This document shows positions 12,755 through 47,531 of a DNA stretch of 47,621 nucleotides, one piece after another. The notes beneath the pieces are model-generated. The model was not told the origin of the DNA. It did no database searches and was given only the letters and a program-made list of their open reading frames with translations. Source of the DNA: Sphaeroforma arctica JP610 (lineage: Eukaryota); contig NW_014040456.1 of NCBI RefSeq assembly GCF_001186125.1, positions 91,664-139,284 of the forward strand. The letters are read 5' to 3'. Both the position numbers and the translations under genes were made by a program. How positions within the stretch are numbered: the first letter of the stretch is position 1; each line of letters opens with the position of its first letter.

Positions 12755-13044
12755 TAGGGATAATATTATTTATTTCAAAAATGGCAAGTATGTATGATAC
12801 AATGTATGAACATATGGTATGGCTCTCATAGTCGCTGTAGTGGTTCAGGAAAGATTGATGGGAAGAAGTGGTCAGTAAATTCCCGTTTGGAGCTTGGGCC
12901 AAATGAGTCGACAATGGAAGATATGTGCTGAGTCAATTCGGGCCGGTGTTGACAAAAAACTGTTACTATCGAATGTTCCATATATTCGCTTGCTGACCTA
13001 CTAAGTAGAGTACCCACCTTTGTGGTACGGATCGGGTCTGCGCC
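12755..13044 (-). mobile_element. 5'-truncated non-LTR retrotransposon 3' end inserted in the family B protease
   Basis: ~290 bp interrupting the protease region. Its first ~100 bp (+ coordinates) match 28560-28661, and its start matches the left end (28987) of the LINE-containing insertion at 28987-30785. Confidence 0.65.
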
Positions 13045-15667: not shown

Positions 15668-16436
15668 TGTGTAAGATTCGGTCTATCAAGGCGATATCAA
15701 CGCCTTAGAGTAATTAAACGCTTAGGTTAAGTCAAAGTATCGTGGAATTCGACGTAAATAAACGAAATGAGTCTTTTGGTAAAGTTCGGTATGCCTCGTG
15801 AAAACAGCAATACTCTGAGACATTGTGAGGCTGAGACATTGCCTATATATAATCCTCTCAGTACTGTTTTCGCCGAAGGGATTTTAGTTAGTGTTTCGTT
15901 GTCGCTCTATTAGAAACTATGGTATGTTTCGTTGGGGCGAGTCCGAGAGACTCATAAAGTCCTATCTTTAAAAAAAAAAGAATAGAAAAAAGAAAAGTAC
16001 TCTTGATGTCCATAGTTAGTGCATTAACCAATAACTTGCCACTTATCAAGAATTGCCGACTTAGCCTTCATCAGACTGGCACACCTGGTTGGCTGAATGG
16101 AGGTTAAACTAGGTAGCGCTAATAGTCCCTAGAAACCTATATTCGGTTGAGCCATCTCGCTAACGAAGTATTCAGATATAAATAGATTTGGAAAGTAAAG
16201 ATAGTTCTATTAATAGAACTAGACCAAATCTTATGTTTGGTATTTTACTGGGGCCTTTTAATGGCCTTGTCCAAATATCTAATACGTAAAATGGAAAAGG
16301 TATTAATTAATAAAACCGTTAAAAACCATTTAGGAAACTTAAGTTCCTTGTACTATTAAGAGTACGCTTATAGTTTACGTACTGCTTAAGAGTACATTTA
16401 TAACATAGAGTCTAATGTGGAGGCCCGGCTATTAAA
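15668..16436 (-). repeat. Family B 5' LTR
   Basis: Direct repeat of 7833-8586, begins tgtgtaag; last few bases degenerate. Confidence 0.9.
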
Positions 16437-16889
16437 GTAGCGCTGATTTGTCCATCATTAGACGTAATATGACATACGATGAGTGTACATCAAGCCATGC
16501 TAACACATATATGTGTGTCCTCTGTTGGAATCCAATAGTGGTCCTATGGTGTCCACTTGGACTCTGTTGCCTTGAAAAGCGGCTGTGATTGATTGTAAGG
16601 GATGAAATCCCTTTTGTGTATCTTATTTTTGAGACATGGTATGCATAGGCAAATGAACTTGTGTACATGTTGTTGGATATCAGGCCAATCATGTGCATCT
16701 GCTTGTAACTTGTAGATTGTTTCCTCAGGAGTTTAATGTCCCAAATTGTGGTATTGCTCGATGATGATGACAACACGTGTCTCGTATTCTGTTGCCTGTG
16801 GGGCATCTTCAGAGTGAACTGGTTCTGATGCTGCAACGTGTATGGCAGGTCGGGTTGTTTCCGCGTTGAGATAAACTATGGAGACTTCA

Positions 16890-17263
16890 CTTCTATCTTT
16901 GCGACTAATATGACACCCCATGGGGTCTTGCCACAAGCCTTTTTGCCTTCTTTGAGGAAAATATTGTTTGTGTTTTCCACTAGCATCGAACTTTGGAAAC
17001 CACGTTGCATTGGGGTAGTATGGTACACATATCGTGATGCTGATTGCCTCTTTGCTGACTTTGACAAGGACATCAGGTATGAGTTCCCATGGTTGGTTCG
17101 TCAATGCATTCACTTTCTGGGCTCATTTTTGTTGTAGCGCATTCTGTTCTTTGGTGCAGTATTTATCTGTGTGTGCATTGTGTGCCGATACAAACAGATC
17201 CCCCGTGAATTCCCCAAATCGTCGTTCAGTTTCTTGGTAAAATCTGGGGTGTAGCATTCAGCC
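16890..17263 (-). pseudogene. DIRS/Dam-like methyltransferase-type domain, family A copy 1
   Basis: MLHPRFYQETERRFGEFTGDLFVSAHNAHTDKY...NALTNQPWELIPDVL...ITICVPYYPNATWF...CGKTPWGVILVAKI (frameshifted). Confidence 0.78.
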
Positions 17264-17640
17264 TGTGGCTGATTGTACTCTTGGCTATCATTGTATTGTA
17301 TCATTTGCTTCTTGTAATACCTTTGAAGTTTATTGAAAATGTCTTCATGTAGACGCGACAACATGTCTCCCATCTGATTGACCTTGCCTTGGACATGTAT
17401 GATGGAGAAGTGGTGGTGGAATGTTTTTGCTGTCCATTTGACTAGCATTGGGTGTAACGTCTGTTGACTGTTCATTAGCGTGAGCGCTTTGTGATCGGTC
17501 CACAGTGTTATGTTCCCCCTATAATGTATTCGGAGAAATGCTGCAGGTTGTATACCAATGCTAGTAGCTCTTTAGTATTGTACTTTTGAGAAATAGAGAA
17601 TATCTCTTCTAACTCCATCGATTACTTGAAATAAACATTC

Positions 17641-18247
17641 TTCTATGCTTGTTAGCGTGCGATGTGGGGGAGTATAAGTAAAGTGCAAATGTATCTAAAG
17701 AATGACATTATTCTATGCTTGTTAGCGTGCGATGTGGGGGAGTATAAGTAAAGTGCAAATGTATCTAAAGAATGACATTATTCTATGCTTGTTAGCGTGC
17801 GATGTGGGGGAGTATAAGTAAAGTGCAAATGTGTCTAAAGAATGGTGCGTTCGAATGAATTTATCTATGATCTCACTCTCAGTTATATACTCATGGTGTT
17901 TGTACTAGTGTTCAATCACTTGGGTTGGCCAGGGTTAAAACCCATATGATCAGTATGAGAAACCTTACGCAGATCACTTTAACACTCGGATATATTTTCT
18001 AGAAATAAATATATCATATTATCTGCTACTACACTCAGTCTCGGACCTCGGCTTTCGGCGAGCCGGTGGCCCGTGTTCTATATATAGAAAAATTTGAGAA
18101 GAGGTCTCAAATTACTCTTAGGTTCTCATAGGCTGACCCACCTATACGTATATTAATTTGAGAACAAGTCCCAAACTACTCTCGGGCTGACGACGTAAAT
18201 TGTTGTTAACGTATCTAGAAATACGTCTACTTCTTTAGTCTCTCAAC
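17641..18247 (+). mobile_element. Insertion in family A RNase H: 70-bp tandem repeat x3 plus a putative Copia-like PPT and 3' LTR remnant
   Basis: Splits the RH coding sequence (DASDCG|..LFQVIDG). Repeat units start at 17641, 17711 and 17781, each with GGGGGAG. The segment has a TATA-like tract and ends tctcaac. Confidence 0.5.
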
Positions 18248-21200
18248 GCCGCAGTCACTAGCATCATTCATTATTTGAAACGGTACCCCATCGACAGGGT
18301 ATGCTAGTGCCGCTGAACATGCGATGGCTTCTTTGAGTTCTTCCCACTTCTTTTTGAGTTCCGGAGTCCATAACATGGATATGTTCTGGTTCATTTTTCC
18401 TTTCATAAGATTCTGGAAGTGTTTCTTTGTGTGGGCAAAGTTGGGGACGTGGTCGCGCATGTAATTTGCTAGTCCCACCGTTTTGTGCAGATCTCTCTTT
18501 GTTCTGGGTAGTGGCCAGTCCATCATCCTTTTCTGTTTTTCAGGATCTGCTTTGAGTCCTTGTGTGGTGAGTTTCACACCTAGAATATTGATCACTTTGA
18601 CCGCGAAGGCACACTTGTTGTGGTTGAGTCGGAAGTTTACTCCATTCAGTTGTTTGACTACTTCATACATTCTTCTTCTGTAAGACTCGCAATGACTATG
18701 TCATCTGCATACACTTGCAATCCTTTGATGTCTATGAGCAAGCTTGTCATGACTCTCTGGAACTGTGCTGTGAGTGAGTGTAGTCCAAACGGCGCTGACT
18801 TGAACGAGTATTACGCTCCTCTCTACGAGAATGTGAAAAAGTGTTGGCTTGCTTCGTCTACTAGAAAATGGTGAAACACTCTTGTGATATCTAGCTTAGC
18901 TTCGAGAAGAATTGTGCTCCATGTAGGTTGTGTAGTACTTCCGTTATTTTTGGTAACATAAATTTGTCTTGTTCATATTGATAATTGATCTCACGTAAGT
19001 CTAGGCATGTTCTTACTTTCTTGAGGAGACCTGTATAGTCCTGTTCACCTGTTGATAACAATGGTAGATTCACCGTTATCGGTGTGGTGCGTTTGTATAT
19101 GTGACCATCTGTAAGCCACCTTTGTACGATTTCATCTGTTTGCGGAATGTATATGCTAGGTACAAAATTGACTTTAGCGTGCCTCATTTGTCTGACGTTA
19201 ACTTCATTTGTAGGTACTATGACTGTGGATCCTGGTAGGTTGCAATGTACGTCAGAAGGTATATTCGCATTGGTATCTAGAAGGTCTGTAGGTGACTCTT
19301 TGAATTCTTCTTGTTCATGCTCCGGGTCCTCCTCATGTGGTGTGAGGAGTGATTCCCATTTTGCATCTGTTGGTATAAGTGGATTAATTAATCCTGCTAT
19401 GTATATACCTATGTATGGTAGAATATCCATACAGAGAAATATTGGTGCCTTCTTGTTTTGTAGATCCAATACTTCAAAACACTGAGAGGTTTTCCTATCT
19501 CGATAATTAATGTCACAAACTTCAGTTGATCCTGTGCGTTGAATTCTTGCATCTGTTTGTGCTAGTTGTATATAACCCGGTTGCGCTTTGACATAGATTT
19601 GTAGTTCTGATACTACACTCTTGTCCATGCATGAGCGTTGTGCGCTCGAGTCTACTAATGTATTGTATGTATTGCCATTAATTTGTATGTCAATGTGTAA
19701 ACGTTGGTCTCGTGGTGCGGGAGGTAAGGATAAAGGTTGATAATTTAAATCATTTGCATTTATTAACAACGTTCCTTCATCTGTATATACATTGAGCCTG
19801 TCAGCCAGGTCAATCATGTTCGCTTCCGCCCACCAGTTGTTTTAGTGCTCGTCACCTTCTGTGATGTCTTCTACCTTCCCAGAGGTAATGGACAGTCATG
19901 CTATTGCACATCCTTCTTGGCCCGCTCCTCAGCCTGTTTGGCTTGATTTCCTTTTTTCTTGGGACATTTACTGAACCGATCTGGGGCTGGCAACACCAGA
20001 CAGACAGTAGGGACATATACGCTCTTCACGTGCCCCTCTCTTCTCTTGTGCCTGTCCCACTGGCTTGTTTTGGTTGGGTGCACCGTTGTCCGGTTTATAC
20101 CGTTTGTTAGCAGTGGTAGTGCTATTCTCATCTTGGATGGTTGTCTGTGCGTTTTGACGCTTGTTCTGCACTCGCAACTGTTCCCTCAACATTCGGTCTC
20201 CTTGCATCTTGGATGCCGCTCTTATTTTTGCCTGTCATAATATGAAACTTGGTGTGTTCTATATCTGACAAGTACCCTTCCCTTCCATCAGATTGCTTGT
20301 CTGCTCTGATTAGAGCTCCACCTGTGTTTGTTGTCCGTAGTACATAAGTGATTGGTACCTTAGTACTCTGAGGAGTTGGAAGTGTATGGGTTCCGTGTCT
20401 GAGTTGCGGTAACTCTCCTCTAACATCACCATTGTCTTATGCGCACGCTCTGTGCGCACTTCGACGTTCAGCTTCTTGTTCTGCATGTCATTGAGAAACT
20501 TCTCCAACAGATAGTCTACTGGGTAGGGCATGAGTCTGTCAATAATGATCCTATTGAATTGCTCAGGTTCCTTGATGCGCTTAGTCGTATGTTTCTCAGA
20601 ATCTCTTAAGTTATTGGGTACTGACTTGGTCTTCTCCGTTGCATCAGTGGAATCTAATAGGTTTCTCGTTGGTGCTGGGTACTGACACAGCGGCATGAAC
20701 TTTGCTACGAATAGATCTCTACATTGCGTAGTGAACTCTATGATGTCTGCACAATTTTCCATTCTAAAGTAACTATCTTTAGGTAGCTTGGAAAATTCTG
20801 AAGTCTTTAGTAGTTTTGCAAGAGGTGGTTCATTTATCTGGTCGCCTAAGCGTGAACGCATGAGCTCTAACTCACTAATGTATTGACTTTTTGTATGAGA
20901 TCATCTTCATTATCGTCACCACAATCGTTGATAGCTATTTCATATCGTCTTCTGAGCTCCACATCCACGAGTGGCATGCGTCGTTTTGGCTGTTGGTCAT
21001 GAATCCCTACCCTCATCTTGTGTAGCGTCGGTATAGGCACCGGTACTGTTTGTTCCAATTTGGATACAACCCTACTAACTAGGATGTAAAAATCCTAAAA
21101 ACGCTTGTCTATTTCTAGACGCATTACTGAGGCTAGTATGGGAACTCCTCCAGGTGTAGATTGGTTTGACCCACTACCCGGGTTTGGTTCCCCTTCTGAA

Positions 21201-23834
21201 ATATCCCCTGCACCATCTGTACCCATACCTTCTTCTTTATATGATGGTGTGTGGCTATTGCAAGTTATTAGTGAAGACTCTTGTTGCTTTCTGTGCGAAT
21301 GTGCGCTTCACCCCCCTTATCTTGTCTAATAGCTTGTATAAAATAAATAAAATATGAAGTGTTTTTACTTACTATTGTCGTCTTATTTCTTTGCTGCACT
21401 TCCGTGTGAAGTGTTTACCGTATTGTGTGGTACGGTAGCTTATTACCTTGTTCTCTGTATTTATGAGGGTGTAAACAGTGTTTGTTAGTCAAGCTTATTC
21501 CGTCATATGAGGAATTACTTATGATTGTTCCGTCATATGAGAAATTGGTTTCTCATGTGATCTTAATGAGATGTTCGGTCTTTGTGACGTCACCGTGAAA
21601 GTTCGGCCCTTTCGACGTCACCCCTGAATGTTCGGTCCACTGAGGATGTGTGGTCTTGTACCGAAATTTCTATGTATGTGTGTGGTATCTGTGATGTTTG
21701 TCCTTATTGACTTTACCAGAAATGTTCTCTGTTTTACCACACTTACTTGATGTTCACGTTACTTTTGTGTTTATTACTTGTATGATGTCCAGTCCTGGAC
21801 CAATTCGGTGTGCTTCTCAGGCTTCATTGTTGATCACTGTCTTGCGAATTTAGTCCGATCTCCTGTGTATATTGTGTGTGTTCGTACAACGAGATTTCGT
21901 TGACTCTGGATGCTCATCACCTTGGTGTCACTTCACCTTCTATTTTAGTTTTTATGAACTGTAAATGCGTCTAGTGTTGTGTGTGGAATGGTTTGTTCCT
22001 GCTCTCTGAATTGTGTTATTGTGATCTTTCTGTGATTCGATCGATCTTGGACGTGCTGTTGGTGTGTGTGTGGAATAAATTATTCCCTTGCCTCACCCAT
22101 ATCTGTCTTCATCTACTTCTAACTTGTTGAGGTAGTTTCGATCACTTCTGACGTTGTGTTTGTACTAGGTGCTTCCTATGTACTATTTGGAATGGATCAT
22201 TCCTGTGTACCATTTAGGCGAGCGTGTCACGAAATGAAATGTTCCTACGCAATATCAGATGCTAGAGATTTGTGTCCTCAATTTCCTCGTGTATTTATGA
22301 ATGATGTATTTGCTATTGTGTGTCACAATACTGTGCTTTCTTCTTCGTGATCTCATGAACTGGTTCGGTGCTATGTCACTTGTTTGACATTTATATCTAG
22401 TATGAAATGCTTATTTGTGGAATCTTGGTATCTGATGTCTTGTTCTGTCTTATAGCGCCTTGAAGTGTATAGTGTACTATCGCATGGCTTGTTTTTTTAT
22501 AGTGTTTTATGAATACTTTACCCGCTGTTACTTATTGTGATTCAATCTTTGAAACTCCTTAATTAAATACACACTGACATTTGTTGTGATTCAATCTTTG
22601 AAACTCCTCAACCATTTGATTAATACTGTGCGCATCTGATTGTTCTTGAACTTTCTTGTTCAATGATCGAGTGTGTGTTATTCTATTGAGTAATTATTTT
22701 CTTCTCCTTAATTGAGAAAACTTGCTTCGTACATGTAATTAACTTGTCTTTATTGAGAATACTTCGTTGATGGAAGTTGCTTCATATAATTGACTTGTCA
22801 ACTATGTGTCCTGATTGATCAGAAGCGATAATCTCCAATCTTGATATGTTGTCTATCTCTCTTCTGACCACTATCTATTCTTAAGCCAGTACAACTACTT
22901 AAATTAACTAGTTTTTGCTTTGTTACCCTTCGTCATTCCATGTTTGGACACTGTTGTGACAAGTGCATGTCTTTTCTAATGCAAGTAGATGCCTGAAACT
23001 CAGGCCTTAGATTTTGAGGTAGACGTTGGTTTCTTACTCATCTGTGTGTGAGAGAGAGCTAAGTTGATTCCTGTTACTATGTTCTGTCGTTCTACGTTAG
23101 ACTTTTGAATGTAGTATATTTCTTGTACTTATTATTTCGGTTTTACTGGCGATTTTGCTCTTATCAGTACTGAATGTCTTATACTTACTTAGGTTGCGAT
23201 CGAGTGTTGTGCTAACATTGAATACTACAGGCTGCTTGCGCGTGTTGTTTTTGTCTTTTAGTTAATAATTCACTGCTAGTTGTGTGCACAAATTCTCACA
23301 ACTCGCTGTGTATAATATCATTGCATGTATTGTTATACTAGTTGTATATCTCGTGGTTTTTGTGCATTGATGTGCAGTGTCCCTAAGTTCAGTATATTTT
23401 CTTGTTCGAAAACTGCCTAAAAATCCCCAACATTGATTAATTAATCTATGTGACACTACTACATAATTTTACTCCCTGAGATACTTATTTGTTCACAATA
23501 AAGCTTATAACACCTTGTCACATGTCCAGCTTACTTCTAGAACACGTTCTATTTACATTGGTTGTTGTGCCAAGGTTCTTCTATCGCTTGAGTGGTTCCC
23601 CTCTTCTTCTTTCTGTCTTCCGCAATCTCAGGATATCGACTTATTTTTCGACTGTGGACCCTCTTTCTTATTCAGGTCCCCTTTGCTTCTCTTCGGCTTC
23701 TCTCTTTTATAATAAAGTTTATATCACAAACAGAGTTTCTTTATGACAGGAGTGTATTCTGCATCATCTCTCACACCTATTTCAGTGTGTTGGGATTCTT
23801 GTTGACTTATCTAAGTAAGAATATTGTCAAAAAA

Positions 23835-24155
23835 TGTAGAGTACGGAGAGTGGCTGAAAGGTACGAGTCAAAGGATACAATAGACCTCTTCTCAAGTACA
23901 GTCATCTCAGCTAGGAAAGTCTCTAGTCTGAGAGAACCGGACTGAGACTTTATTTGTGTTTTTACTAGACTCAGGATTTACTCGAGTGTTTCTCTCACAC
24001 GCGGGGTCCCGGTATAGCTTACCGGGTTTACCGCTAATATTTCTGATGACTAATATCAGAAACATTCCATTCCTACTTCCAAAACTCAGTATTTGATTAT
24101 TATGGGATTTGGGATTTGGATTGGCTTTTTGATAGTCTAGTCCCTAGTTGCTACA
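23835..24155 (-). repeat. Family A LTR (5' LTR of copy 1)
   Basis: TG...CA termini, homologous to the other family A LTRs, adjacent to family A leader sequence. Confidence 0.9.
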
Positions 24156-27505: not shown

Positions 27506-27825
27506 TGTAGCATCTAGGGACCAGACTATCAAAAAGCCAATCCAAAACCCAAAACCCAGAATAATCAAATACTGAGTTTTGGAATTAGGATTTAAATATG
27601 TCTGATATTAGAGTCATCAGAAGTATTAGCGGTAGAACCGGTAAGCTATACCGGGACTCCCGCGTGAGAGAGAAACACAAAAGTAGATCCTGAGTCTAGT
27701 GAAAACACAAATAAAGACTCAGTTCCTCAGGTTAGGGACTTTTCCTAGCTGAGATAACCGTACTTGAGAAGAGGTCCATTGTATTCCATTGTCTCGTACC
27801 TTTCAGGAGCTCTCCATACTCTACA
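27506..27825 (+). repeat. Family A 5' LTR of copy 2
   Basis: tgtagca...ctctaca, internal AATAAA, reverse complement of the other family A LTRs. Confidence 0.9.
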
Positions 27826-32484: not shown

Positions 32485-35400
32485 GTGCAGCAAAGCAACA
32501 GCAATATAATTGTAAGTAAAACAAATCAAAATTTCATTTATTATGACTTATTACTAAAGACGGGGGATGAAGCGCGCGCTTTCACACAAAACATAACCAG
32601 AGTCTTTATTAATAATCCACTAACACCCACACACCAATGCAGGCTTCTGGAAATGCCAACAGCAACCAGAACAAACGTGTACTGTGGGGGGGGGGAAGGG
32701 AATGCAGGCGCGGATGACGTGGAAGTCTGTCCAATGGAAGGGACAAGCCCAGGCAATAGTTCGGGCCAACCTACACCGGCGGGTGTACCCATTGTAGCGA
32801 CAGCAATGCGTCTATAAGTAAACAAGAATATCTGTCAAGGCAATCATGTTCTGATGAGTCGGTTTGTGTCCAAATTGGAAATACAGCACCAGTGCCTATA
32901 CCGACTCTACACAAGATGAGGGTAGGCATACATGACCAACAGCCAGAGTGCCGAATGCCACTAGTGGATGCGGAGCTCAGACGACGATATGACCAAGCAA
33001 TCAACGATTGTGGTGGTGATGAGGACGACAAACTTATTCAAATCAGTCTGTACGTTAGTGAGCTAGAGCTCATGTGTTCTCGTTTAGGCGATCAGATAAA
33101 CGAACCATCTCTCAAGAAATTACTCAAGACTTCGGAATTTCTCAAGATGCCTAAAGATAGTTTCTTTAGAATGGAAAATTGCGAAGATATCATAGAGTTC
33201 ACTACACAGTGTAGTAATATATTCTTAGCTACGTCAATCCCATTGTGTCAGTGTTCAGCAATCCCATTGATGCAACGGAGAAAACCAAATCAGTACTCAA
33301 TAACTTAAGAGATTCTGAGACACAAAACTAGGCACTTCAATGATCCTGAGCAGTTCAATAGAATCATTATTGATCGACTCAGATCGCACCCAGGAGACTA
33401 TCTATCGGATAATTTTCTCAATGACATGCAGAATAAGAAGATGAACGTCGAAGTGCGCACAGAACGTGTGCACAAGACAATGGCGATGTTAGAGGAGCGT
33501 TACCGCAACTCAGACAAGGAGCCCGTACACTTCCAATTCCTCAAAGTCCAGAGGTACATAGCACTGAAGTACTATGGATTGCAATCAGTTGTGGACATCC
33601 TAATCAAAGGAGACAAGCAACCGGATGGAAGTGAAGGACACTTGTCTGACATAGAACATACCAATTTTCATACTATGACTGAGACACACATAAGAACGGC
33701 GGCTATGACACAAGCAGAGCGTATGTTGCGGGATCAGGCGCGAGCAGCAAACAAGCGCAACAGCGCACAGACGAACAGGCAAGTGGTGGATAACTCTACA
33801 AACGCTAACAAACGGCACACGCCAGATGATGGTGCACACAACCAGAACAAGCAAGGGGGGGCATACAAAGAAAAAGAAACGAGCACGTGAAGAGCGTGCA
33901 TGCCCCTATTGTCAGAAAATGCCAACAGCGAATGTCCTGAGAAGAAAGCAAATCAAGCCAAGGAGGCTGAGCAGCGAGCCAAGAAAGTTGTGCAGATAGC
34001 AAGACTGTCCATTATATCTGGCAAGGTGGAAGACATCACAGAAGGGGATGAGCACTGAAGACACTGGTGAGCGGAAGCAAACATGATTGACCTGGCTGAC
34101 AGACTCAATGTATTTACAAATGAAGAAACGTTGTTAATAAATGCAAATGATAGAAATTATCAACCTTTATCTTTACTTCCCGCACCATGAGACCAACGGT
34201 TACACATTGACATACAAATCAATGGCAATACATACAATGTACTAGCAGACTCGGGTGCACAACGCTGATGCATGAACAAAAGTGTAGTATCAGAACTATA
34301 TATGTTAGTGCGCAACCGGGGTACATACAACTAGCACAAATGGATGCAAGAATTCAACGCACTGGATCAACAGAAGTTTGTGACTTTAACTATGGAGGTA
34401 GGAAGACCTCTCAGTAATTTGAAGTATTGGACTTACCAGACAAAAAGACACCAATGCTTCTAGGTATGGACATTCTACCATAAATAGGTATATACATAAC
34501 AGGGTTAATCAATCCACTTATACCAACAGATGCAAAATGGGAATTGCTCCTCACACCACATGGAGAGGACCCAGAGCATGAACAAGAAGGTTTCAGAGAG
34601 TCACTTACAGACCTTCTGGATACCAATGCGAATATATCTCCTGATGCTCATTGCAATCTACCAGGTTCCACAGTCACTGTACCTGCAAATGAAATCAACG
34701 TCAGACAAATGAGGAACGCTAAAGTCAACTTTGTTCCGCACAAATACATTCCGCAAACGGATGAGAATGTGCAACGATGGCTTAAAGATGGCCACATATA
34801 CAAACGCGATACGCCCACAACGGTGAACCTACCGTTCTTATCAACAGGTGAACATGACCAAACAGGTCGCCTCAAAAAAGTAAGAACATGTCTAGCCATA
34901 TGCGAGATCAGTTATCAGTATGAACAAGACAAATTCGTGTTACCAAAAATAAAGGAAGTGTTACACAACCTACAAGGGGCACAGTTCTTTTCAAAGCTAG
35001 GTCTGGAGAATTTTACCATTTCCTAGTAAACGAAGCAAGCCAACACTTTTTTACATTCTCGTGGAGAAGAGCGCAGTACTCATTCGAGTCCGCGCCGTTT
35101 GGACCACACTCACTCACAGCACAATTCCAGAGAGCCATGGCGAATCTGCTCATATCTATCAGAGGAGTGCAAGTGTGTGTAGATGGCATATTCATTGCGA
35201 GTCTTACCGAAGAAGTACACCGCAAGTCAATTCGTGAAGTAATCAAGTGACTGAATAGCAACATTCTTGAGGTGAAAGTCACCACACAGGGACTCAAAGC
35301 AGACCCTGAGAAACAGAAAAGAATGATGGACTGGCCACTGCCGAAAACAAAAAGAGATCTGTACAAGGCAATGGGACTAGCAAATTGCATGCGAGACCAT

Positions 35401-36758
35401 GTCCCCAACTTTGCCCACACAACGAAACACATTCGGGACCTAATGAAAGGAAAAATAAACCAGAACATATCCATGTTGTGGACACCGAAACTTATAAAGA
35501 AGTGGGAAGAACTCAAAAAAGCCATCGCCTGTTCAGCGACGCTAGCATACCCTGTTGATGGGGTACCGTTTCAAATTATGAACGATGCTAGTGATTATGG
35601 CATAGGAAGGTACTTATTTCAAGTCATCGATGGAGTTAGAAGAGACTTTCTCTAGTCCTCAAAAGGCTTGAATCCAGCTGGCACAAATACCAAAGAGCTA
35701 CTAGCACTGGTATACAGCCTGGAACACTTCTCTGAATTAATCAAAGGGGGGGACATAACACTGTGGACAGATCACAAAGCGCTCACGCAAATGAACAGTC
35801 AACAGACGTTACACCTAATGCTAGCCAAATGGATAGCAAAAACGTTCTACCACCATTTCTCCATCATACATGTCCCAGGCAAGGACAACCAGATGGCAGA
35901 TATGTTGTCACGTCTCCTTGAAGATACTTTTAGTACTAAAGAGTCAAAAGTATTACAACAGGCGAATGAGGCAACTCATAATAGCCAAGAGTACACCACC
36001 TTGGAAACGAACATACCCATAACCATATCGGATATAGACTGGATGTTACATCCCAGATTCTATCAAGAAGCGGAACGAAGGTTTGGGGAGCTCACAGTAG
36101 ATCTGTTTGCATCAGCACACAATGCGCACACAGATAAATACTACACCAAAGAACATATTGCGATACAACAAAAGTGGGCGCAGGAAGTGAATGCATGGAC
36201 GAACCCATCATGGGAACTCATACCTGATGTCCTTGACAAAGTCATTGAGGAGGCAACCAGCATCACAATATGTGTACCATATTACCCCAATGCCTCGTGG
36301 TTTTCAAAGTTCTTGTCTTTACTAGAAGAAGACCCTATGCTAGTAGAAAACACAAACAATACGTTCCTCAAAGAGGGCAAGAAGGCTTGTGGCAAGACCC
36401 CATGGAGTGTCACATTAGTCGCAAGGATAGGAGCTAAGTTTCCATACTTTGACTCAACGTGGGAACAACCTGCTATACACGTTGCAGCGTCAGAACCAGT
36501 TCACTATGAAGACGCACCACAGGAAACAAAATATGAGAAACGTGTCGATCTCATCGAGCAATACCACAACTTAGGACATTACACTCCTGCGGAAACAGTA
36601 CACAAGTTGCAAGCAGATGGACATGATTGGGCTGATATCCAACAACATGTACACAAGTTCAATGACGGATGTATACCAGGTCTAAAAAAACCCCCCTCAA
36701 AAAGGTATTTCACCCTTTACAATCAATTACAGCCGCATATCCAAGCGACAGAGTCCAA
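32485..36758 (+). pseudogene. Family A copy 2 gag-pol (gag-PR-RT-RH-MT-IN N-terminus), disrupted
   Basis: ORF fragments 32892-33890 (gag), LADSGA (~34245, PR), 34544-35655 (RT/RH). ORF 35668-36855 runs uninterrupted from RH (WTDHKAL...NQMADMLSR) through MT to the IN H-X3-H motif. Confidence 0.9.
36037..36432 (+). pseudogene. DIRS/Dam-like methyltransferase-type domain, family A copy 2 (open frame)
   Basis: DWMLHPRFYQEAERRFGELTVDLFASAHNAHTDKYY...NAWTNPSWELIPDVLDKVIEEATSITICVPYYPNASWF...GKTPWSVTLVARIG. Confidence 0.85.
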
Positions 36759-37082
36759 TGTAGTAAGTCGTAAAGACAACTGTATCTCAGCGTGCTCCCC
36801 TCGTACAAGGGGAGGCTTGTTCATTTATCGAACTATTCCTGACACTATATTTTGATCATGTGTTTTCCTATTCAGATTTACTCTGAACGGATAAACCCAG
36901 TTTCAAAATATAGTCTCTAAACCCCTAATACACTATTCCTGACATTATATTTTGATCATGTGTTTTCCTACTCAGATTTACTATGAACGGATAAATCCAG
37001 TTTCAAAATTTAGTCTCTAAACCCCTAATACTAAATAAACCCTAATCCCAAATAAACCCTGTCCAGGGACCTCCTGACAACA
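36759..37082 (-). repeat. Family C 3' LTR with ~100-bp internal tandem duplication
   Basis: Homologous to 41357-41595; unit actattcctgac...cccctaatac occurs twice (~36832-37031). Confidence 0.88.
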
Positions 37083-37329
37083 ACAACCCCAAACTGAAAC
37101 ACAATTTGTGGGCCAGCTTTAAGAATTCGAAAGAGTATCCTGAGCAGGCTAGTGTGCTGGCATTTAACCTCAGAGAGCTAGAGGGCTCGGTTATTTATTC
37201 ACCACTCGAGCTGGTGACTAAACATTAGGTACATGTAACTACCCTAATATATGTATATCTATAAACAACTGGGTGTTATTTACAACTGGTCACTGCGACA
37301 TTTCCTGGCTCGTGTCTGTGTATCCTTAT

Positions 37330-37470
37330 GATAAGCTACAATGTCATTAGCATCGTCAAAAGCATCGGCTGTTTCCCATGTTGGCACTCCCTCACGCCAA
37401 CGTACAAGGTATTCCAGCTTACCCGTATCATCGTTCGTCCGATGTTTGATAATGTAACGGAATGCTGCGC
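37330..37470 (-). pseudogene. Integrase C-terminal chromodomain, family C
   Basis: FRYIIKHRTNDDTGKLEYLVRWREGVPTWETADAFDDANDIVAY fits the chromodomain pattern (I..HR...YLVRW.G..TWE). Confidence 0.8.
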
Positions 37471-37635
37471 CACCTTCATGTCACAGAGTGTGGTGGACCA
37501 ACCGTAGTAACTCTACGCGAACCGGCTTCCCTTTAAAATCCTGGGGGGCGGCTTCGTTAACTTGTCCGTATATGTCGTAGTGATTTTATGCAACGTAGGC
37601 AAAATCGTATCATGCAGCTGGTCCAGCCGTTGTGC

Positions 37636-40161
37636 CTACGTGTCATTGGTCACGGGTTGTTGCTCGGGAACAACGTCGGTAAAATCTGCGAACGGAACAT
37701 GACGGCGGCCAAAATATACGCTAAACGGCGCGCTTTTGTGTCGTCGGGAGATACGCAAATTCTGGTAAAGCATGGTAAAAGGTAGCCGTTCGTCCCATGC
37801 CTGAGGTATTGCCTTACAGCAGATGCGTATAGAGCGTGTTATCTCCGTGTGTCGACGTTCTGTTGCGCCCAGTACTTGCGGTCTGTATGGTGGTGAGATC
37901 TTATGGTGTATACCCACTTCTTTGACAATAAGAGCTACCATGTTATTAGTAAACTCCGTCCCCATATCGGTCTGCAGCTTGCGTGGGAATCCATGTTCAC
38001 CGAAGATGGCCAGTAACATTTGAGCGGTTGTTTCCTTAGTCTTATCGGGTGTGGCGCGTAATATCGAGTATCCGGATGCGACGCCTAACACATGTAAGAC
38101 AAATTTATACTGTCGGGAGGATGTCACCGACATTGGGATATAGTCCACCTGAATATGGTCCCATGGGTACTTCACATCAACACTCATCATTGGATGGAAC
38201 CCTTTACGCAAGGTGTCCTGGCCCAAACACTGACCACATTGCCATTTGATTTCAGTAGCTAATTCTAACGCCCCCGGCCAGACATGTCCTTTCTGCTGCA
38301 ACTGTTGGACAGTATCGGCGGCGCCGTGATGGCCTTGCTCATGATGCGCCTGTGTGAGTTGTGTCCGCCGTTGTTGTTCCATCGGAGTGGCATTCACGAA
38401 CGCTAGTTGTACCGCTTCACTTGCCAACGCAACGGAAATCTCCCGCGCAGTGTCCAAACATTGATGGTATGGTGTGTGACGAGGATCGGCGTATATTAAC
38501 CGTTGGGTGAAGCTCTCTGCTAGTTGGAATCCCGACGGTGGGCCCACTCGTGCCACCACCGTGTGGCCCCATGGAGTCTTCCCGCAAGCATACTTCGCAT
38601 ATTTCAGAAATGTATGCCGGGTTCGGGGTACTACCATGGGCTCGGCTTGCAGTAATGATTGGAAGAGGTCAAACCATGGTGCTCGAAGGGTCCAAGGTAG
38701 GCATACCGTTGCCGTGGCTCCATCTGTTTTGATCTTCCGTAGCATGCGGTGTATCAGTTTCCATGGCGGGTTCATCCATCCATCGACCAGCGCCCAGTCA
38801 TGGTCAAATTGCGGTCATTTTTAGTCCAGAACCTGGGCAGCTGAGCGTTGTGAGGTACTGCGAATACGTCTATATTGTTATGGCCATAGACACGTTGAGC
38901 CTGTTCAAAATAGCTGAGAAATAGTTGCCAGCAGTCTAGATACAGCACCTCTGGTACATCCGTCTCCACTGTTCCTTCATGTATCCGACTGAGCATGTCC
39001 GGCAGTACATTATTCTCCCCTGTATATGCGAAATAGTAAAATCAAAAGGCGCTATTATATGATGCCAACGCTGTAACATAGGGTTAAGCTTCAGTTGGGT
39101 GTTCATATATACTAAAGCCTTGTGATCCGTAAACACCGCGAAGAGTTGTCCGTTGAGGTAGTCGCGGAAGTGTGTCAAACCATAAACTAACGCCAGGAGT
39201 TCCTTCATCGGCGTTGTATAGTTCTGCTGAGCGTGATTGAGGGTTTTACTGAAGAACATGAGGTAGTGTTTCTTACCCTCCACCCACTGAAATAGCGCTC
39301 CCCCTAGTCCGTAGTCACTAGCGTCCGTCTCGAGGTTGAGTGGGACTTTATCTACCGGGAAGTGTAATGCTACTGCGTACACTATCGGATCCTTCATCGC
39401 TTGCCAAGCGTCCGCATGGCGTCGCTCCCACCTGTCTCCTATCAGTTCGGTTGGTTTGAGCTTACAGAATTCACGTAGTGGCGCCACCACGTGTGCAAAA
39501 TTGGATAGGTGAAATTAGCCAGGCCCAACGCAGAGGCAATGTCCTTGTACCGCTAAGGTGTTAGCCAGTCTAGAAGTTTGGCCTGTTTCTCAAAGTCGAC
39601 ATCAATCCCCTTCGCCGAGACTTTCTTGCCCATTATCATAACTTCCGCAATTGCAAAATGACACTTGGCCGGATTCAGTTTGAAGCTATGGTATGTCAGT
39701 CTCTTGATCACCTCCTTCACTGTAGCCACGTGTTCTTCGTAATCGTCGTTGGCTATTACTATGGTGTCGATGTAGTGGTGGACTGGCAAACAATCGAGTA
39801 TCGTACTATGTGTTCGTTGAAATTGCTGTGTCAGCACGTGCAAACCGAATGGTGCCGATGTGAACGAGTACTGACATCTGTCGTGTGTGAAGCTGAACAG
39901 ATATCTAGAGTCGGGATATATCGGGAGTCTATGGTATGCTGCCGATATGCCGAGTGTAATATAGTACTTCCTGCTCTTTAATCTAGAAATGATCTCATTC
40001 ACTTTCGGTATCAAGAACTGGTCTCCTGGTATCAGTGCGTTGACCGCTCGCACATCTAGGCAGACGCGTACCTTCTTAACGTTGCCCTCACTGTCGAATG
40101 TCGGAACCGCTAGAAGTGGAAGACTAACCGTCGTCGGTATCGTACGCTTCGTGATCACCAA
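37636..40161 (-). pseudogene. Family C pol (RT-RH-MT-IN), disrupted
   Basis: RT (APFGL, HHYIDT), RH (ETDASD, FTDHKAL), MT (IDVFAVPHNAQLP...NPPW), IN (HHEQGH...CGQC, HIQVD, QTDMGTEF, LGATER). Confidence 0.9.
38540..38937 (-). pseudogene. DIRS/Dam-like methyltransferase-type domain, family C
   Basis: DCWQL...YGHNNIDVFAVPHNAQLPRFW.../NPPWKLIHRMLRKIKTDGATATVCLPWTLRAPWF...GKTPWGHTVVARVG; the second half is in frame with the integrase. Confidence 0.85.
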
Positions 40162-41356
40162 GTCTTTTAATCATTCCTGTACTTATCGAATACGAAATTG
40201 CGTGTTGACCTTCTCATGCTCATTGCTTGCTCGTGCTACTGGTATCGCCACCTCACTCCCCTCTAAGCGACAACGTGCATTATCCTCAATAGCGGCGTTC
40301 GTTTCTGAAACTGTGGCAAGTCGTGCCCGCACTCCGTCTGGTTCGGTAATATCGGGGGCCTGGCGGCGAGCCACTGGCTTGAGAAGGTCGTCGAGCTCTG
40401 TTGGGTCGATAGGTGTCAGCGGTGATTGTATCCCTCCCAGGTATAATCGTCGATGCCGTCGGGTAGATTCATCAGTTCAAATGACCAGTTGATAATCTCG
40501 TATCCAGTGCCCTATTTGTTCTTCTTGTGTCCCTTAACCTCTCATGCCTTACCTAATGTCCTTACTTCTAAGTTCTCGTTTCTACTTAACATGTTTAGAC
40601 TGCACTTTCTATACACAGGTCTACGTAGGCAACACTAAGAACAACCTTCAATGTTACACTAGTGCGTGCATCCTCTTTACGTACCTTGTCGATGTTCCTA
40701 TTGCTTCCCAACTGGGTGCTGTTTTCAACTGAAGACACCTACCTAAACATATTCTGCACTCTTCTTTTGTCGCTGTGTACGTCCTGCGGATGTATCGCCG
40801 TCCAATCCGGTGTATAACCAAATCGATGCGATGGAATTGACCTTGGTGTTGGTCTCTTTTGATCTTGGCCCAACCCTTCCTGTCTCCTAATTCTATTAGT
40901 TCCGGGTGTCGTTTCCAGTGGAACCTTCCCTTCAGACTTCCTCTCTTTGCTTTCTGGTGACGCCACCCTAACGTTCAATCGGGCGGGATGACTGCGATTG
41001 TATAGTATCTGTCTACGGTTATGTAGTCCCATTCATCTTGTGTTTCTCTTAATTTCCTGAGTTCCCCCCAACTTCTTCGGGTTCTGAAGCACTGCTTTCG
41101 TTTGTTAACAGTGCTGGCATACTGTCACTAGTGTCACTGCTTACAAAAGCACTCTCTGTACCGTCTCATCTTCGCAATTCTATTCCATGGGTCGCCATTT
41201 CCGTGGACGATGTCGATGTTTATGTCATCTCTTTCCTCCCTTTTCTACTATAAAATTTTATTTTACTGTATTACTCTGGGTCCTATGGGCCCCCGCTAGT
41301 ATCTATTCTTCTTCAGGATATGTTCAATAATGTCCAACCTACAAGTAAGTTAAAAA

Positions 41357-41595
41357 TGTAGTGGATCATAAAGATAACTGTATCTCAACGTACTCCCCTC
41401 GTACAAGGGGAGGCGTTGTTCATTTATTGAGCTATACCTGACACTATATTTTGATAATATGTTTTCCTACTCAGATTTACTTTGAACGGATCCAGTTTCA
41501 AAATATAGTTTCTAAACCCCTAATACTGAATAAGCCCTAATATTAAATAAACCCTAATCCCCAAATAAACCCTGTCCAGGGACCTCCTGACTACA
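41357..41595 (-). repeat. Family C 5' LTR
   Basis: tgtagt...gactaca, homologous to 36759-37082. Confidence 0.9.
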
Positions 41596-41599
41596 CCAA

Positions 41600-42368: not shown

Positions 42369-42486
42369 TCTACCGCTAAAATTTCTGATTGCTCTAATAT
42401 CAGAAATATTACAATCCTCAATATTTGATGATCCTGGGTTTTGGGATTCGGATTGGCTTTTTGATAATATGGTCCCTAGATGCTAC
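42369..42486 (-). repeat. Partial family A-type LTR
   Basis: Matches the taccgcta...ccctagatgctaca end of the family A LTR. Confidence 0.8.
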
Positions 42487-44632: not shown

Positions 44633-47187
44633 GGCTATGGGCCTTTCTTAGGCATTTGATACTCAATTAATCATGAACGACAACACTGCAACTATCGCAG
44701 TCCCCGCAGCCGCTGGATGCTTCTATCGTTCAGTGATGACAACCACGATGTCGGCTCGACGATATTCGCGTTGCCTTTTCCACTGCCAAACAAAATGAAC
44801 TACCAGTTCTAGAATTTGTCCAAGATGGACAACCACAGACCCCCCCCTCGGGTCAAACCCCCATCGTGTACCTGCCCGCACATGTTCACTTCCACACAAC
44901 CCGATTCCGTACTACCGCTACTGAAGCTGGCACCTATGCATAAGCTCGCCAGATTCTCTTACGATCTGCCTTACTCACTCGACCTCGATGAAATGATATC
45001 TGATCTATGGACACTTTTGCAAATACCGCGCAATTTGTATTTCCAAAAATTGGCTACCGTTGCACTACATATCAAGTTTGCTCATTTAGAGACATTCAAG
45101 GTGTGATCCAGGACGACGAGAACATGTGCACATGGGCAAATCGTTGTCTCAAATCGAAACGTACTGCCGCACACCAGGATAATTGTGTATCTTCTGTATT
45201 TATACCAGATGCTTTCCTTTTTGGCCTCGACCAAGCTGCTCAGGATCAAGCTCGCAAATTCCTTGTCACTAATACTTGCACTAATATCTCACCACTCTAC
45301 ATTTGCGAGTGGATTGAGACATGGCGGCAAACCGACCCGCACGCTAGCAACGTCGCTTTTCTCTCATTCGTCCGTCATCCAACTCGCAACAACCGGCCGC
45401 ACACGTCCAATTCAGACGTGCTCAAGAGACTAGATGATCTCGCGATCACACTGGTTACCACGTAATCCGCCCCCTTGGTTCGTCTGTATGTCTGCTTGAA
45501 TACCACCCACTCTGACAGCGACTGCCCTTCCGGATGCGATTGTTGTGAAAGTTCTGTTCACCGCAATGTATCATGCGATGCCGGTTCCTTAACCTACAAT
45601 TTATGCTTCATCAATGGACATTCTGCTAAAGTCTGCTCAAAACGCGTCGCAAACAAATCCGCTTCCAACTATTACGAAATAATCGCTCAATTTCTTTACG
45701 TACTACCTCCACTGCCATAGTACATCCACATGACCCGCTTCTTATCGACGATGGGGCCACAGTTAATTATCTACACTCAACTGCCCGATATTTACTTCGT
45801 GATGTTGAAACCAGCCATTCCCACTACTTCTCGCTGATGATTCTCTCACCCACGTCACCGAACGAGGTATATTCCCAGGTTTAGGTTTGACCTACCTCAG
45901 CCCTTCACTATCGCAGTAAATGGTCTTCCAAAACAGACTCCAGGACAATTGATATCGACTAGAGATCCCTGATAATCGCCGAATATGTCATATTCATCAT
46001 TCTGACCCCTCAGTATCCCTGCCACTCGCCAAGGGAGGGTACAGCATTACATACGAGCGGCTCGAAATCTCGCAAGTCTGTCATTTTCTCCGCCGTCCCT
46101 CAAATCATTCCGTCTGACCGACAATGACGCTGAACCCACAGATTCTGACACCGAATTTTACACGGAAAATAGCGCTGTTGCTGAACATTCTGCTAATTCT
46201 ATTCCCCAACTGTTGGTGTTGACAAAGAAGACTGAATGCTAAACAGGAATCATTGGCGATCGGCCACGACCCACAACGACTTTGAACCGAGCATCGACAT
46301 TTATACATAACCTACCAGTTCACAGTAACCCCGGTATGTTGCGAGGGTGGAGAAATAAATGATTTTCGGAAGGTAAATTTAATTACGGAGAAATGCTACA
46401 ATGGCAACTCCAGATGGACTGATATCAATGGTCTGATTCGCCTCAACGTCTCTATCGGCTCCACTATTGCCATCTGTGTGCCACTCCGCCTCTGTGCAAA
46501 GTGGTGGCCCCTCTTCATTTCTCGCATTCAAAGTTCGCCGTACATTATTCTGAATACTAATAAGACATTACACCAATATGACACCACCGCTGTCGATCAC
46601 CCTACTTGGAGACATACGTCCTAGTGGCCAAATTGAGACCCTGACATCCTCTCATTGCTCCCAAAACTGCTCTTTAATTAGCAATTGAGTTTATAAATGC
46701 CAACCCCAAATTCCCAAAACATTGCCAAGTGTGTCTTAAAAGAAAACTCAAGCGCAAGGCTGTTGCTCATCATACCTTCAACACCGTATATGGTCCGGCC
46801 GAGTAATTTCATATTGATTTGCAAGGCCCCATGCCTGCCGATCGTCATGATAACAAGTACGCACTCAAAAAGATCGGTGATGGCACGAAATGCGGCCTCC
46901 ACAATATTTTGCCGAACAAACATAATGTTACTAACGACGTCAAGGCATTTTTGGTCCAGTTCCCCTCCCACTACAAACCACGTCGGCTCATCGGATAATG
47001 TTTTCCAGAGTGAACCTACACGCGCCATGCTGCTCGAACGAAATATAGATCTGCATCGTACATCGACACACACACTACAGCTCAGTAGTAAAGTCGAGCG
47101 TGCCCATGGCACCTTGAATCAGCACACACGCACATTGCTATTGAACTCTAAAGCAGCCGCTACCACTTTGGAGCCGGGATAGAGCAT
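44633..47187 (+). mobile_element. Ty1/Copia-like retrotransposon, 5' part (PBS-gag-PR-MT-IN), decayed and cut by a family A LTR
   Basis: GGCTATGGGCC at 44633 resembles the copia tRNA-iMet-half PBS GGTTATGGGCCC. Cys/His knuckles at ~45490-45640, protease LLIDDGAT at ~45740, integrase CQVCLKRKLKRK...FHIDLQGP...KY and T.QLSSKVERAHGTL...RTLLLNS. No RT between PR and IN. Confidence 0.72.
46250..46640 (+). pseudogene. Degenerate DIRS/Dam-like methyltransferase-type domain in the Copia-like element
   Basis: Manual translation FEPSIDIYT*PTSSQ*P ... GNSRWTDINGLIRLNVSIGSTIAICVPLRLCAKWWPLFISRIQSSPYIILNTNKTL...PTWRHT/LVAKL aligns motif by motif with the MT of families A, B and C. Confidence 0.6.
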
Positions 47188-47531
47188 TTGTAGAGTATAG
47201 AGAGTAGCTGAAAAGACACAACTAAACGATACAATATACCTCTTCTCAAGTACGGCTATATCAGCTAGAAAAAGTCCTTAGGCTGAGATAACCGAACTGA
47301 GTCTTTATTTGTGTTTTTTGATACACTAAACTCAGGTTTTACTTGAGTGTTTCTCTCACACGCGGAGTCCTGGTATAGGTTGCCGGCTCTACCGCTATTA
47401 TTTCTGATGACTCCTGATGACTCTCATATCAGGAATATTTGAATCCCGATTCCACAACTCAATATTTGATGATTCTGAGTTTTAGGGATTTGAATTGACT
47501 TTTTTGTTGTTGTTGATAATCTGGCCCCTAG
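47188..47531 (-). repeat. Family A-type LTR interrupting the Copia-like integrase
   Basis: Begins tgtagag, homologous to the other family A LTRs, right end degenerate. Confidence 0.82.

What the first reader, a model, noticed from the sequence alone, without database searches (positions are those of the whole stretch)
35668..36758. Gypsy chromovirus Pol with a DIRS/Dam-like adenine methyltransferase fused between RNase H and DDE integrase
Seen: one open frame runs from RNase H (WTDHKAL...ADMLSR) through DW.L...VDLFAS.HNA...NAWTNP[S]W...TICVP..P.ASWF into the integrase H-X3-H zinc-finger start. The minus copy (16890-17263) has NQPW; each variant is one substitution away from NPPW. Established: D-L-F-A (SAM binding) followed by NPP[WFY] (catalytic) is the amino-methyltransferase signature, and this phage-Dam-like MT is known downstream of RT-RH in DIRS1-type tyrosine-recombinase elements. 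Canonical Ty3/Gypsy Pol goes directly from RH to IN. Inference: a true LTR, DDE-integrase element carries its own 6mA writer in Pol and could methylate its cDNA or insertion site, for example to mimic an active-chromatin mark or to mark self. I am not aware of this architecture being described, but I cannot check the literature.
Basis: partly seen in the sequence, partly recalled or inferred. Interest (0 to 1): 0.93.

Follow-up and report, generated by a model that had tools for sequence, protein, structure and literature searches.

The report
Decayed Gypsy retrotransposon with adenine methyltransferase
This is a broken copy of a Gypsy-type jumping gene whose replication protein carries an adenine-methyltransferase domain between RNase H and integrase; the design is real but was described in a 2026 preprint, likely for this same lineage, and what the domain methylates is still untested.

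Summary
Real, but already described. The frame at 35656-36855 holds RNase H, a Pfam Dam domain (40.7 bits, cut-off 28.1) and the start of an integrase zinc finger. Its integrase core resumes at 41597, after a nested element. Four Gypsy copies of three families in the window share this order, and intact 1288-aa relatives read NPPW. RT trees put them with Gypsy, not DIRS. RT and methyltransferase trees group them with Abeoforma whisleri proteins; the nearest named domain is from Sphaeroforma arctica (73%). This is likely the 'Ichthyosporean DAM-LTR lineage' of bioRxiv 10.64898/2026.05.21.726589. The scan also found Gypsy-Dam before on other DNA. This copy is dead (NPSW, stops, frameshifts).

Three additions. 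(1) The lineage has a divergent C-terminal chromodomain, which the preprint says it lacks. (2) Three intact Ty1/Copia polyproteins in public data also carry Dam; the preprint never mentions Copia. A fifth, decayed element here (about 45487-47188) may be Copia-like, unproven. (3) The nearest solved fold is the RNA cap methylase PCIF1, so an RNA substrate stays open, though phage Dam-like models match better.

The parts
35656..36855 (+). Element A: open frame with the RNase H C-terminal part, methyltransferase and integrase zinc-finger start (fragment of a broken pol)
36034..36432 (+). Dam-like amino-methyltransferase domain of A: DLFA at 36100, NPSW at 36202, PW near the end
34122..35907 (+). 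Element A protease, RT and RNase H, with stops and frameshifts; pieces 62-69% identical to intact P0002
41597..42375 (+). Element A integrase core (rve E 5.6e-12), resuming after nested element B; cut near 42375 by an LTR fragment
27506..27825 (+). Candidate 5' LTR of A (TG...CA); an N gap near 29000-29960 lies between it and the coding region, so the link is inferred from the match to A'
36759..41595 (-). Element B, a second Gypsy-Dam family nested in A's integrase. LTRs 36759-37082 and 41357-41595 (93% identical), 4-bp target duplication CCAA. MT 38930-38539 with NPPW but frameshifted; rve; chromodomain 37480-37304 (Pfam Chromo E 2.9e-5)
6168..24155 (-). Element A', sister copy of A (about 80% DNA identity). 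LTRs 24155-23835 and 6482-6168 (85%), no target duplication found. MT 17254-16894 with NQPW; integrase and chromodomain-like end 7844-6930
7835..16436 (-). Element C, a third Gypsy-Dam family nested in A'. LTRs 95.5% identical; RT, RH, MT 11150-10594 with NPPW and an internal 161-bp tandem duplication, rve, chromodomain-like end 9101-8925
45487..47188 (+). Element E, heavily decayed. Zinc-knuckle-like motifs (45487, 45595), protease-like words by eye (45741-45920), MT C-half 46376-46621 (25.9 bits, shuffles at most 0), integrase-like 46720-47155 (marginal); no RT or RNase H signal. Possibly Copia order; unproven

Best explanation
The stretch is a decayed copy of a Ty3/Gypsy LTR retrotransposon with a Dam-like adenine-methyltransferase domain between RNase H and integrase, likely of the ichthyosporean DAM-LTR lineage, whose intact members would likely methylate adenines in their own newly made cDNA or RNA:DNA intermediate. 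Shown here: the domain order PR-RT-RH-MT-IN-chromodomain in one frame in intact relatives; Gypsy-type RT and DDE integrase; a predicted SAM-dependent amino-methyltransferase fold; NPPW in intact relatives; conservation as strong as RT. Inferred, following the preprint's model: Pol is packaged in the particle, the MT acts on the reverse-transcription product, and after integration the host enzyme AMT1 keeps the 6mA mark, so the new copy stays transcribed. This copy cannot do so (broken frame, split integrase, altered motif). Confidence is about 0.95 for the identity and about 0.5 for the DNA-marking mechanism.
For: Pfam Dam above cut-off between RH and IN. Intact 1288-aa relatives P0001 and P0002 (76% in the MT region) have PR, RT, RH, Dam and rve in one frame with NPPW. 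The best PDB sequence hit of P0002 is Ty3 Gag-Pol (E 7e-60). In the RT tree all 4 window RT pieces lie in a 16-row clade (SH-aLRT 98) with A. whisleri P0012 and P0013, apart from 22 DIRS-like RTs (99). The MT tree gives a matching clade (99/96), with S. arctica SARC_09892 (P0007, 73%) beside copy A. The model has pLDDT 93.6 and matches phage DNA N6-adenine methyltransferases best (E 8e-10, TM 0.75). MT identity of P0002 to A. whisleri P0013 is 45%, against 43% for RT; dN/dS between A and A' is 0.23 in MT, against 0.15-0.25 in the other pol parts and 0.42 in gag. The preprint reports more 6mA and more expression on DAM-LTRs than on other LTRs in S. arctica and A. whisleri.
Against: No activity has been shown: the preprint's heterologous assay in dam-minus E. 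coli gave no rise in 6mA. The 6mA enrichment is a correlation that host AMT1 alone could produce. The domain is only about 135 residues, and the preprint says eukaryotic DAMs align with only part of the prokaryotic enzyme. The closest solved structures are RNA methylases: PCIF1 Z 10.1 and DIMT1 9.5, against T4 Dam 7.9. The host was not identified directly; no genome was held.
Confidence: 0.55

Rival explanations
1. Same element, but the MT acts on RNA, as PCIF1/CAPAM does: it N6-methylates the cap-adjacent or internal adenosines of the element's own transcript, or the RNA strand of the hybrid, to stabilise it or get it translated or packaged.
For: PCIF1 ranks first among solved structures in two searches (Foldseek E 2.3e-4; Z 10.1, rmsd 2.9 over 136 residues), followed by rRNA m6A methylases. 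Pfam PCIF1_WW matches 4 of 68 homologues scanned. Iyer et al. (PMC4738411, passages) place the DIRS1 MT in the PCIF1 clade. It would explain the negative assay on E. coli genomic DNA.
Against: Predicted phage proteins annotated as DNA N6-adenine methyltransferases match far better (E 8e-10 to 5e-6) than viral PCIF1-like proteins (7e-4 and worse). PCIF1 and DIMT1 are within 1 Z unit, and a shared fold shows no substrate. 6mA on DNA is enriched over DAM-LTRs.
Confidence: 0.22
2. The domain is catalytically dead or non-catalytic in all copies and is kept as a SAM- or nucleic-acid-binding module of Pol; the 6mA over these elements is written by host AMT1 because they are transcribed.
For: Negative heterologous assay. 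Iyer et al. judged DIRS1 MT copies likely inactive. Earlier scan notes report Gypsy-Dam families that lost the motif yet kept the domain (not tested here).
Against: NPPW and D-x-[FM]-A are kept in deeply diverged families (A-type relatives, B, C, A. whisleri) and in three Copia proteins; 113 of 150 homologues have NPP[WFY]. That is what is expected of a working active site.
Confidence: 0.2
3. The arrangement is an accident: a DIRS fragment inserted into a Gypsy copy, or a misassembly.
For: The region is a nest of broken elements with an N gap.
Against: The same in-frame order occurs in three families in the window and in intact single-frame relatives from separate sources. No tyrosine recombinase hit among 144 frames of 75 aa or more. 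The MT is under purifying selection.
Confidence: 0.02

Closest known systems
Ichthyosporean DAM-LTR lineage (Fernandez-Moreno et al., bioRxiv 10.64898/2026.05.21.726589; Pirum gemmata, Abeoforma whisleri, Sphaeroforma arctica)
   Same: Ty3/Gypsy organisation with a DAM domain in pol and an NPP-aromatic motif. RT and MT of the window's elements group with A. whisleri proteins, and the nearest named MT is from S. arctica.
   Different: The preprint says this lineage lacks chromodomains. Here B, A', intact relatives and A. whisleri P0013 have a divergent one, below Pfam's cut-off. This copy is decayed. I could not see the preprint's figures or supplements, so I cannot say whether this exact family is listed.
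Chlorophyta DAM-chromovirus-like clade (same preprint)
   Same: Gypsy with DAM and a C-terminal chromodomain.
   Different: Different hosts by the preprint's account. The Gypsy-Dam proteins with strong Chromo hits (P0030, P0044, P0045, P0110) fall outside the window's clade in both trees; their hosts are unnamed.
DIRS1-type retrotransposon MT domain (PF05869)
   Same: Homologous domain placed after RT-RH.
   Different: The window's elements have an aspartic protease, a DDE integrase, direct LTRs and a Gypsy RT; no tyrosine recombinase was found.
PCIF1/CAPAM cap-specific adenosine N6-methyltransferase (PDB 6irw, 6irx)
   Same: Closest solved fold.
   Different: 13% identity; the element's domain is about 135 residues against about 480 for PCIF1; substrate untested.
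Phage Dam-like N6-adenine methyltransferases (PF05869, phrog_111)
   Same: Best profile and predicted-structure matches.
   Different: Fused inside a eukaryotic retrotransposon polyprotein.

Membership tests
Ty3/Gypsy LTR retrotransposon | pol order PR-RT-RH-IN | tested here: met
   P0001/P0002 domain order; colinear pieces in A
Ty3/Gypsy LTR retrotransposon | Gypsy-type RT | tested here: met
   Ty3 is the top PDB hit of P0002; RT tree separates the window's RTs from 22 DIRS-like RTs. The DIRS label was given by architecture; no curated reference set was used.
Ty3/Gypsy LTR retrotransposon | DDE integrase with zinc finger | tested here: met
   rve at 41591-41863, E 5.6e-12; weak H2C2
Ty3/Gypsy LTR retrotransposon | Direct LTRs, TG...CA, target-site duplication | tested here: met
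   LTR pairs for B, C and A'; 4-bp duplication for B only; A has one candidate LTR
Ty3/Gypsy LTR retrotransposon | Primer-binding site (tRNA or self-priming) | tested here: inconclusive
   By eye, no tRNA-type start after the 5' LTR in 5 of 5 copies; no self-complementary match above shuffles; copies are old
DAM-LTR (bioRxiv 10.64898/2026.05.21.726589) | PF05869 domain at E below 1e-5 in an LTR element with Gypsy RT | tested here: met
   E 2.5e-10
DAM-LTR (bioRxiv 10.64898/2026.05.21.726589) | NPP-aromatic catalytic motif | tested here: not met
   Not met in this copy (NPSW) or A' (NQPW); met in B, C and intact relatives. Read as decay of this copy, not as a family difference.
Ichthyosporean DAM-LTR lineage | DAM and RT group with ichthyosporean elements | tested here: met
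   Clades with A. whisleri proteins (RT and MT) and an S. arctica protein (MT)
Ichthyosporean DAM-LTR lineage | No chromodomain (as stated in the preprint) | tested here: not met
   Divergent chromodomain found, also in A. whisleri P0013 (27.3 bits with a profile built without it). Likely a detection-threshold effect in the preprint, so I do not treat it as defining.
Ichthyosporean DAM-LTR lineage | Host is an ichthyosporean with AMT1 and 6mA over the copies | not testable with these tools
   No genome held; host inferred from relatives only
Chromovirus | Chromodomain at the integrase C-terminus | tested here: met
   B: Pfam Chromo E 2.9e-5; the profile of six C-termini hits 48 PDB sequences at E up to 1, by name all chromodomain proteins, best 2.4e-5. 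Absent from A itself, which is truncated.
Chromovirus | RT/IN placement in the chromovirus clade | not tested
   No curated chromovirus references were available
DIRS1-like YR retrotransposon | Tyrosine recombinase, no protease or DDE integrase | tested here: not met
   No recombinase hit in 144 frames of 75 aa or more; protease and rve present
Ty1/Copia (element E) | Order gag-PR-IN-RT-RH | tested here: inconclusive
   Zinc knuckle lies about 600-700 bp before the MT and no RT/RH signal is upstream, whereas A, A', B and C all give one. Copia PR profile gave no hit, the integrase scores were marginal for both Copia (4.3 bits) and Gypsy (6.9), and the RT end is cut off.
Ty1/Copia (P0060, P0066, P0182) | Copia protease, SH3 and RVT_2 after integrase in one frame | tested here: met
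   Pfam Pol_BBD, Dam, SH3_retrovirus and RVT_2 all above cut-off in 3 of 3; LTRs not examined

The most novel reading that the evidence does not exclude
The domain is an active, compact N6-methyltransferase that marks the element's own RNA or RNA:DNA intermediate rather than chromosomal DNA, as its closest solved relative PCIF1 does, and it has been captured by Ty1/Copia elements as well as DIRS and Gypsy, at least once and perhaps again in this host (element E). The Copia part alone is about 0.7 likely to be real and undescribed (three intact polyproteins); E being Copia about 0.45; the RNA substrate about 0.2.
Probability: 0.15. Interest if true: 0.7.

Novelty: already known. Interest (0 to 1): 0.3.

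Why it matters
The architecture itself adds little: it was reported in May 2026, probably for this lineage. The side results matter more. A chromodomain in the ichthyosporean lineage would mean these elements pair a methyl writer with a chromatin-reader-like module, correcting the preprint's description. Dam in intact Ty1/Copia polyproteins would extend the capture to a second LTR superfamily, which a screen built on RVT_1 would likely miss. The open question is what this widespread, conserved domain methylates; intact NPPW copies (P0001, P0002, P0013, P0066) give substrates for a direct test on DNA, RNA and hybrids.

Tried and rejected
No genome was held for this window, so copy number, AMT1 and the host could not be checked. 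Single-sequence folding failed (pLDDT 37.9); folding with a 72-row alignment worked. The PDB has no sequence-level hit for the MT. P0002 found no metagenome locus; P0182 found one 1.5-kb locus that covers only its C-terminus, so LTRs of the Copia-Dam elements were not seen. The Atlas search on P0002's MT gave unnamed clusters and one row with Dam in 11% of members (score 0.88; lead only). No RNA holder was listed for the stretch. For element E: no Pfam hit on read-through frames except a weak zinc knuckle; no homologue among long proteins; no significant tblastn match to P0060 or P0066; Copia PR profile negative and integrase class unresolved. E's MT fell with the ichthyosporean clade in two trees, but on a long branch, and grouping it with the Copia MTs was not rejected (p-AU 0.5). 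Self-priming and tRNA priming sites were not found. Target duplications were not found for A' or C. Whether other copies of family A in the same organism keep NPPW was not determined at read level. DIRS identity and chance insertion were rejected (see rivals).

Full report
Observation. The stop-to-stop frame 35656-36855 (+) is 399 aa. Pfam finds RT_RNaseH at 10-61, Dam (PF05869) at 129-220 with 40.7 bits against a cut-off of 28.1, and a weak integrase zinc-binding hit at 295-340. PHROGs gives phrog_111, DNA methyltransferase, E 5.9e-11. DLFA starts at 36100, NPSW at 36202, and the minus copy has NQPW at 17098.

Anatomy. The window is a nest of LTR elements beside a host RPL18 gene. Element A, the finding, matches intact relative P0002 in pieces from protease to zinc finger at 62-70% identity, with stops and frameshifts. 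It is split at 36758 by element B (36759-41595, minus; LTRs 93% identical; 4-bp duplication CCAA). A's integrase reads ...DRVQ before B and QVDTIGP... after it, and its core at 41591-41863 hits rve at E 5.6e-12. A is cut again near 42375. Its sister A' (24155-6168, minus, about 80% DNA identity) is split by element C (16436-7835; LTRs 95.5% identical). A profile from three outside relatives finds the methyltransferase (MT) in A, A', B, C and a fifth place, E, at 46403-46618 (19.5 bits; best of 30 shuffled windows 2.2). B and C keep NPPW, though B is frameshifted inside the domain and C has a 161-bp tandem duplication there. No tyrosine recombinase was hit among 144 frames of 75 aa or more.

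Intact relatives. P0001 and P0002 (1288 aa, 76% identical over the MT region) carry PR, RT, RH, Dam and rve in one frame, with NPPW. A search of 1.84 billion representatives gave 1118 hits at E up to 0.001. Of the 150 listed, I scanned 98 with Pfam (30, 68); P0002 was scanned earlier and 51 proteins under 300 aa were left out. Among 150 domains extracted from 152 outside proteins, 113 read NPP[WFY] and none NPSW, so A's motif is best read as decay. The MT is as conserved as RT between distant families (45% against 43% for P0002 versus P0013), and dN/dS between A and A' is 0.23 over 120 MT codons, like RH and IN.

Placement. P0002's best PDB sequence match is Ty3 Gag-Pol. In an RT tree of 46 rows, the four window pieces lie in a 16-row clade (SH-aLRT 98) with Abeoforma whisleri P0012 and P0013, apart from 22 rows I labelled DIRS-like by architecture (99). 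The MT tree of 60 rows gives a matching clade (99/96; bootstrap not fully settled), with Sphaeroforma arctica SARC_09892 (P0007, 73%) next to A. The host is therefore likely S. arctica or a close ichthyosporean. This is inference: no genome was held, and RPL18 was about equally close to fungi, animals and plants.

Fold. With a 72-row alignment the model reached pLDDT 93.6. Among predicted viral structures the best matches are phage DNA N6-adenine methyltransferases (E 8e-10, TM 0.75); PCIF1-like viral proteins follow at 7e-4. Among solved structures PCIF1/CAPAM ranks first (E 2.3e-4; Z 10.1, rmsd 2.9 over 136 residues), tied within 1 Z with DIMT1 (9.5), and T4 Dam is at 7.9. The fold confirms an amino-methyltransferase but not the substrate.

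What is known. bioRxiv 10.64898/2026.05.21.726589 (I read parts 1-4 of 5 of the text and section 20; figures and supplements not seen) reports DAM domains in Ty3/Gypsy elements, names an 'Ichthyosporean DAM-LTR lineage' in Pirum, Abeoforma and S. arctica, finds more 6mA and expression on these elements, and got no activity in E. coli. Iyer et al. (PMC4738411, passages) place the DIRS1 MT in the PCIF1 clade and judge it likely inactive; the preprint's text has 0 mentions of PCIF1. De Mendoza et al. (PMC5890265, passages) note Dam-like MTs in DIRS only. Earlier notes of this scan record Gypsy-Dam elements in six other windows, all filed under the preprint (unchecked).

Addition 1: chromodomain. 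The preprint says the ichthyosporean lineage lacks chromodomains. B's C-terminus hits Pfam Chromo at E 2.9e-5, just under the cut-off. A profile of six C-termini (three relatives, B, A', C) hits 48 PDB sequences at E up to 1, by name all chromodomain proteins, best 2.4e-5. It scores A. whisleri P0013, which was not in the profile, at 27.3 bits. Against this: Pfam alone shows nothing for P0002, P0013, P0014 or C and only E 0.001-0.08 for five others. By eye against HP1, the central Trp is kept and the other two cage aromatics are mostly missing, as in group II retrotransposon chromodomains (PMC3350952, passages). What it binds is unknown. B's 4-bp duplication differs from the 5 bp reported for Capsaspora chromoviruses (PMC4007536, passages), and placement in the chromovirus clade was not tested.

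Addition 2: Copia. Two of the 98 scanned hits, P0060 (2098 aa) and P0066 (1838 aa), plus P0182 (1887 aa), are Ty1/Copia polyproteins with Pol_BBD, SH3, RVT_2 and Dam above cut-off. P0066 and P0182 have Dam between protease and integrase; P0060 has it before the protease. Their MTs form one clade (100/99). P0066 has a second full-length cluster member from another source. Hosts and LTRs are unknown. The preprint's text has 0 occurrences of 'copia' or 'Ty1'. Four paper searches (listings only) and one search of scan notes (which showed only cytosine-MT Copia notes) showed no Copia-Dam report; subscription journals, Repbase and the preprint's supplements were not searched.

Element E in the window may be another case. 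It has a C-x3-G-H-x4-C knuckle at 45595 (2 of 1000 shuffles), protease-like words by eye, the MT (25.9 bits; 40 shuffles at most 0), an integrase-like stretch, and no RT or RNase H signal, which A, A', B and C all give. Three of four runs hold the stretch in one contig with no differences (they may be this DNA's source), so it is not a misjoin. But the Copia protease profile missed it, integrase scores were marginal for both classes, and its MT could not be placed. It stays a lead; a deleted Gypsy derivative is not excluded.

Mechanism. Shown: architecture, predicted fold, conserved active-site motif in intact members, purifying selection, and decay of this copy. Inferred: that the domain travels with Pol in the particle and transfers a methyl group to adenine N6. 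I put the cDNA or hybrid substrate first (0.55) because phage DNA methylases are the closest models and 6mA is enriched on these elements. An RNA substrate (0.22) and a non-catalytic role (0.2) remain open.

Verdict. A real feature of an already described kind, in a dead copy. Interest 0.3, carried by the chromodomain correction, the Copia extension and the open substrate question.

Noticed in passing
P0060, P0066/P0172, P0182 (database proteins): Intact Ty1/Copia polyproteins with a Dam domain reading NPPW, in two different positions (before or after the protease); not mentioned in the DAM-LTR preprint's text. Hosts and LTRs unknown.
   Followed up: partly
window 45487-47188 (+): Decayed element E with zinc knuckles, an MT remnant and an integrase-like stretch but no RT/RNase H signal; possibly Copia order.
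   Followed up: partly
P0031, P0037 (database proteins): Gypsy-like polyproteins with an AP endonuclease and Dam placed before a very divergent RT (protease detected in P0031 only), then RH and an integrase zinc finger.
   Followed up: no
P0106, P0089 (database proteins): Dam after the integrase in P0106; Dam next to a dUTPase in P0089.
   Followed up: no
window 2965-4094 (-): Host RPL18 gene with introns; two introns each hold a C/D-box snoRNA-like copy (3559-3647 and 3084-3173), weakly matching SNORD18 (E 0.15 and 0.47, below the gathering score).
   Followed up: partly
window, just inside the 5' LTRs of A, A', B, C and the LTR at 42921-43248: No tRNA-type primer-binding site by eye and no self-priming match; four of five begin with a run of T. 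The priming mode is unexplained.
   Followed up: partly
window 24162-27505 (-), 42369-43248, 47189-47506: A further partial A-like copy (gag and protease, cut by A's-type LTR) and several extra LTRs of the A family, showing repeated insertion into one region.
   Followed up: no
window 742-2163 (+): A 473-aa low-complexity frame with no Pfam match, probably part of a host gene.
   Followed up: no
window 29961-30695 (-): A 245-aa frame next to the N gap, at higher GC, with no Pfam match; it interrupts the A-like sequence.
   Followed up: no
window 17635-17844, 10831-11152, 36832-37031: Tandem duplications inside elements: three 70-bp units in A', two 161-bp units in C's MT, two 100-bp units in B's left LTR.
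   Followed up: no
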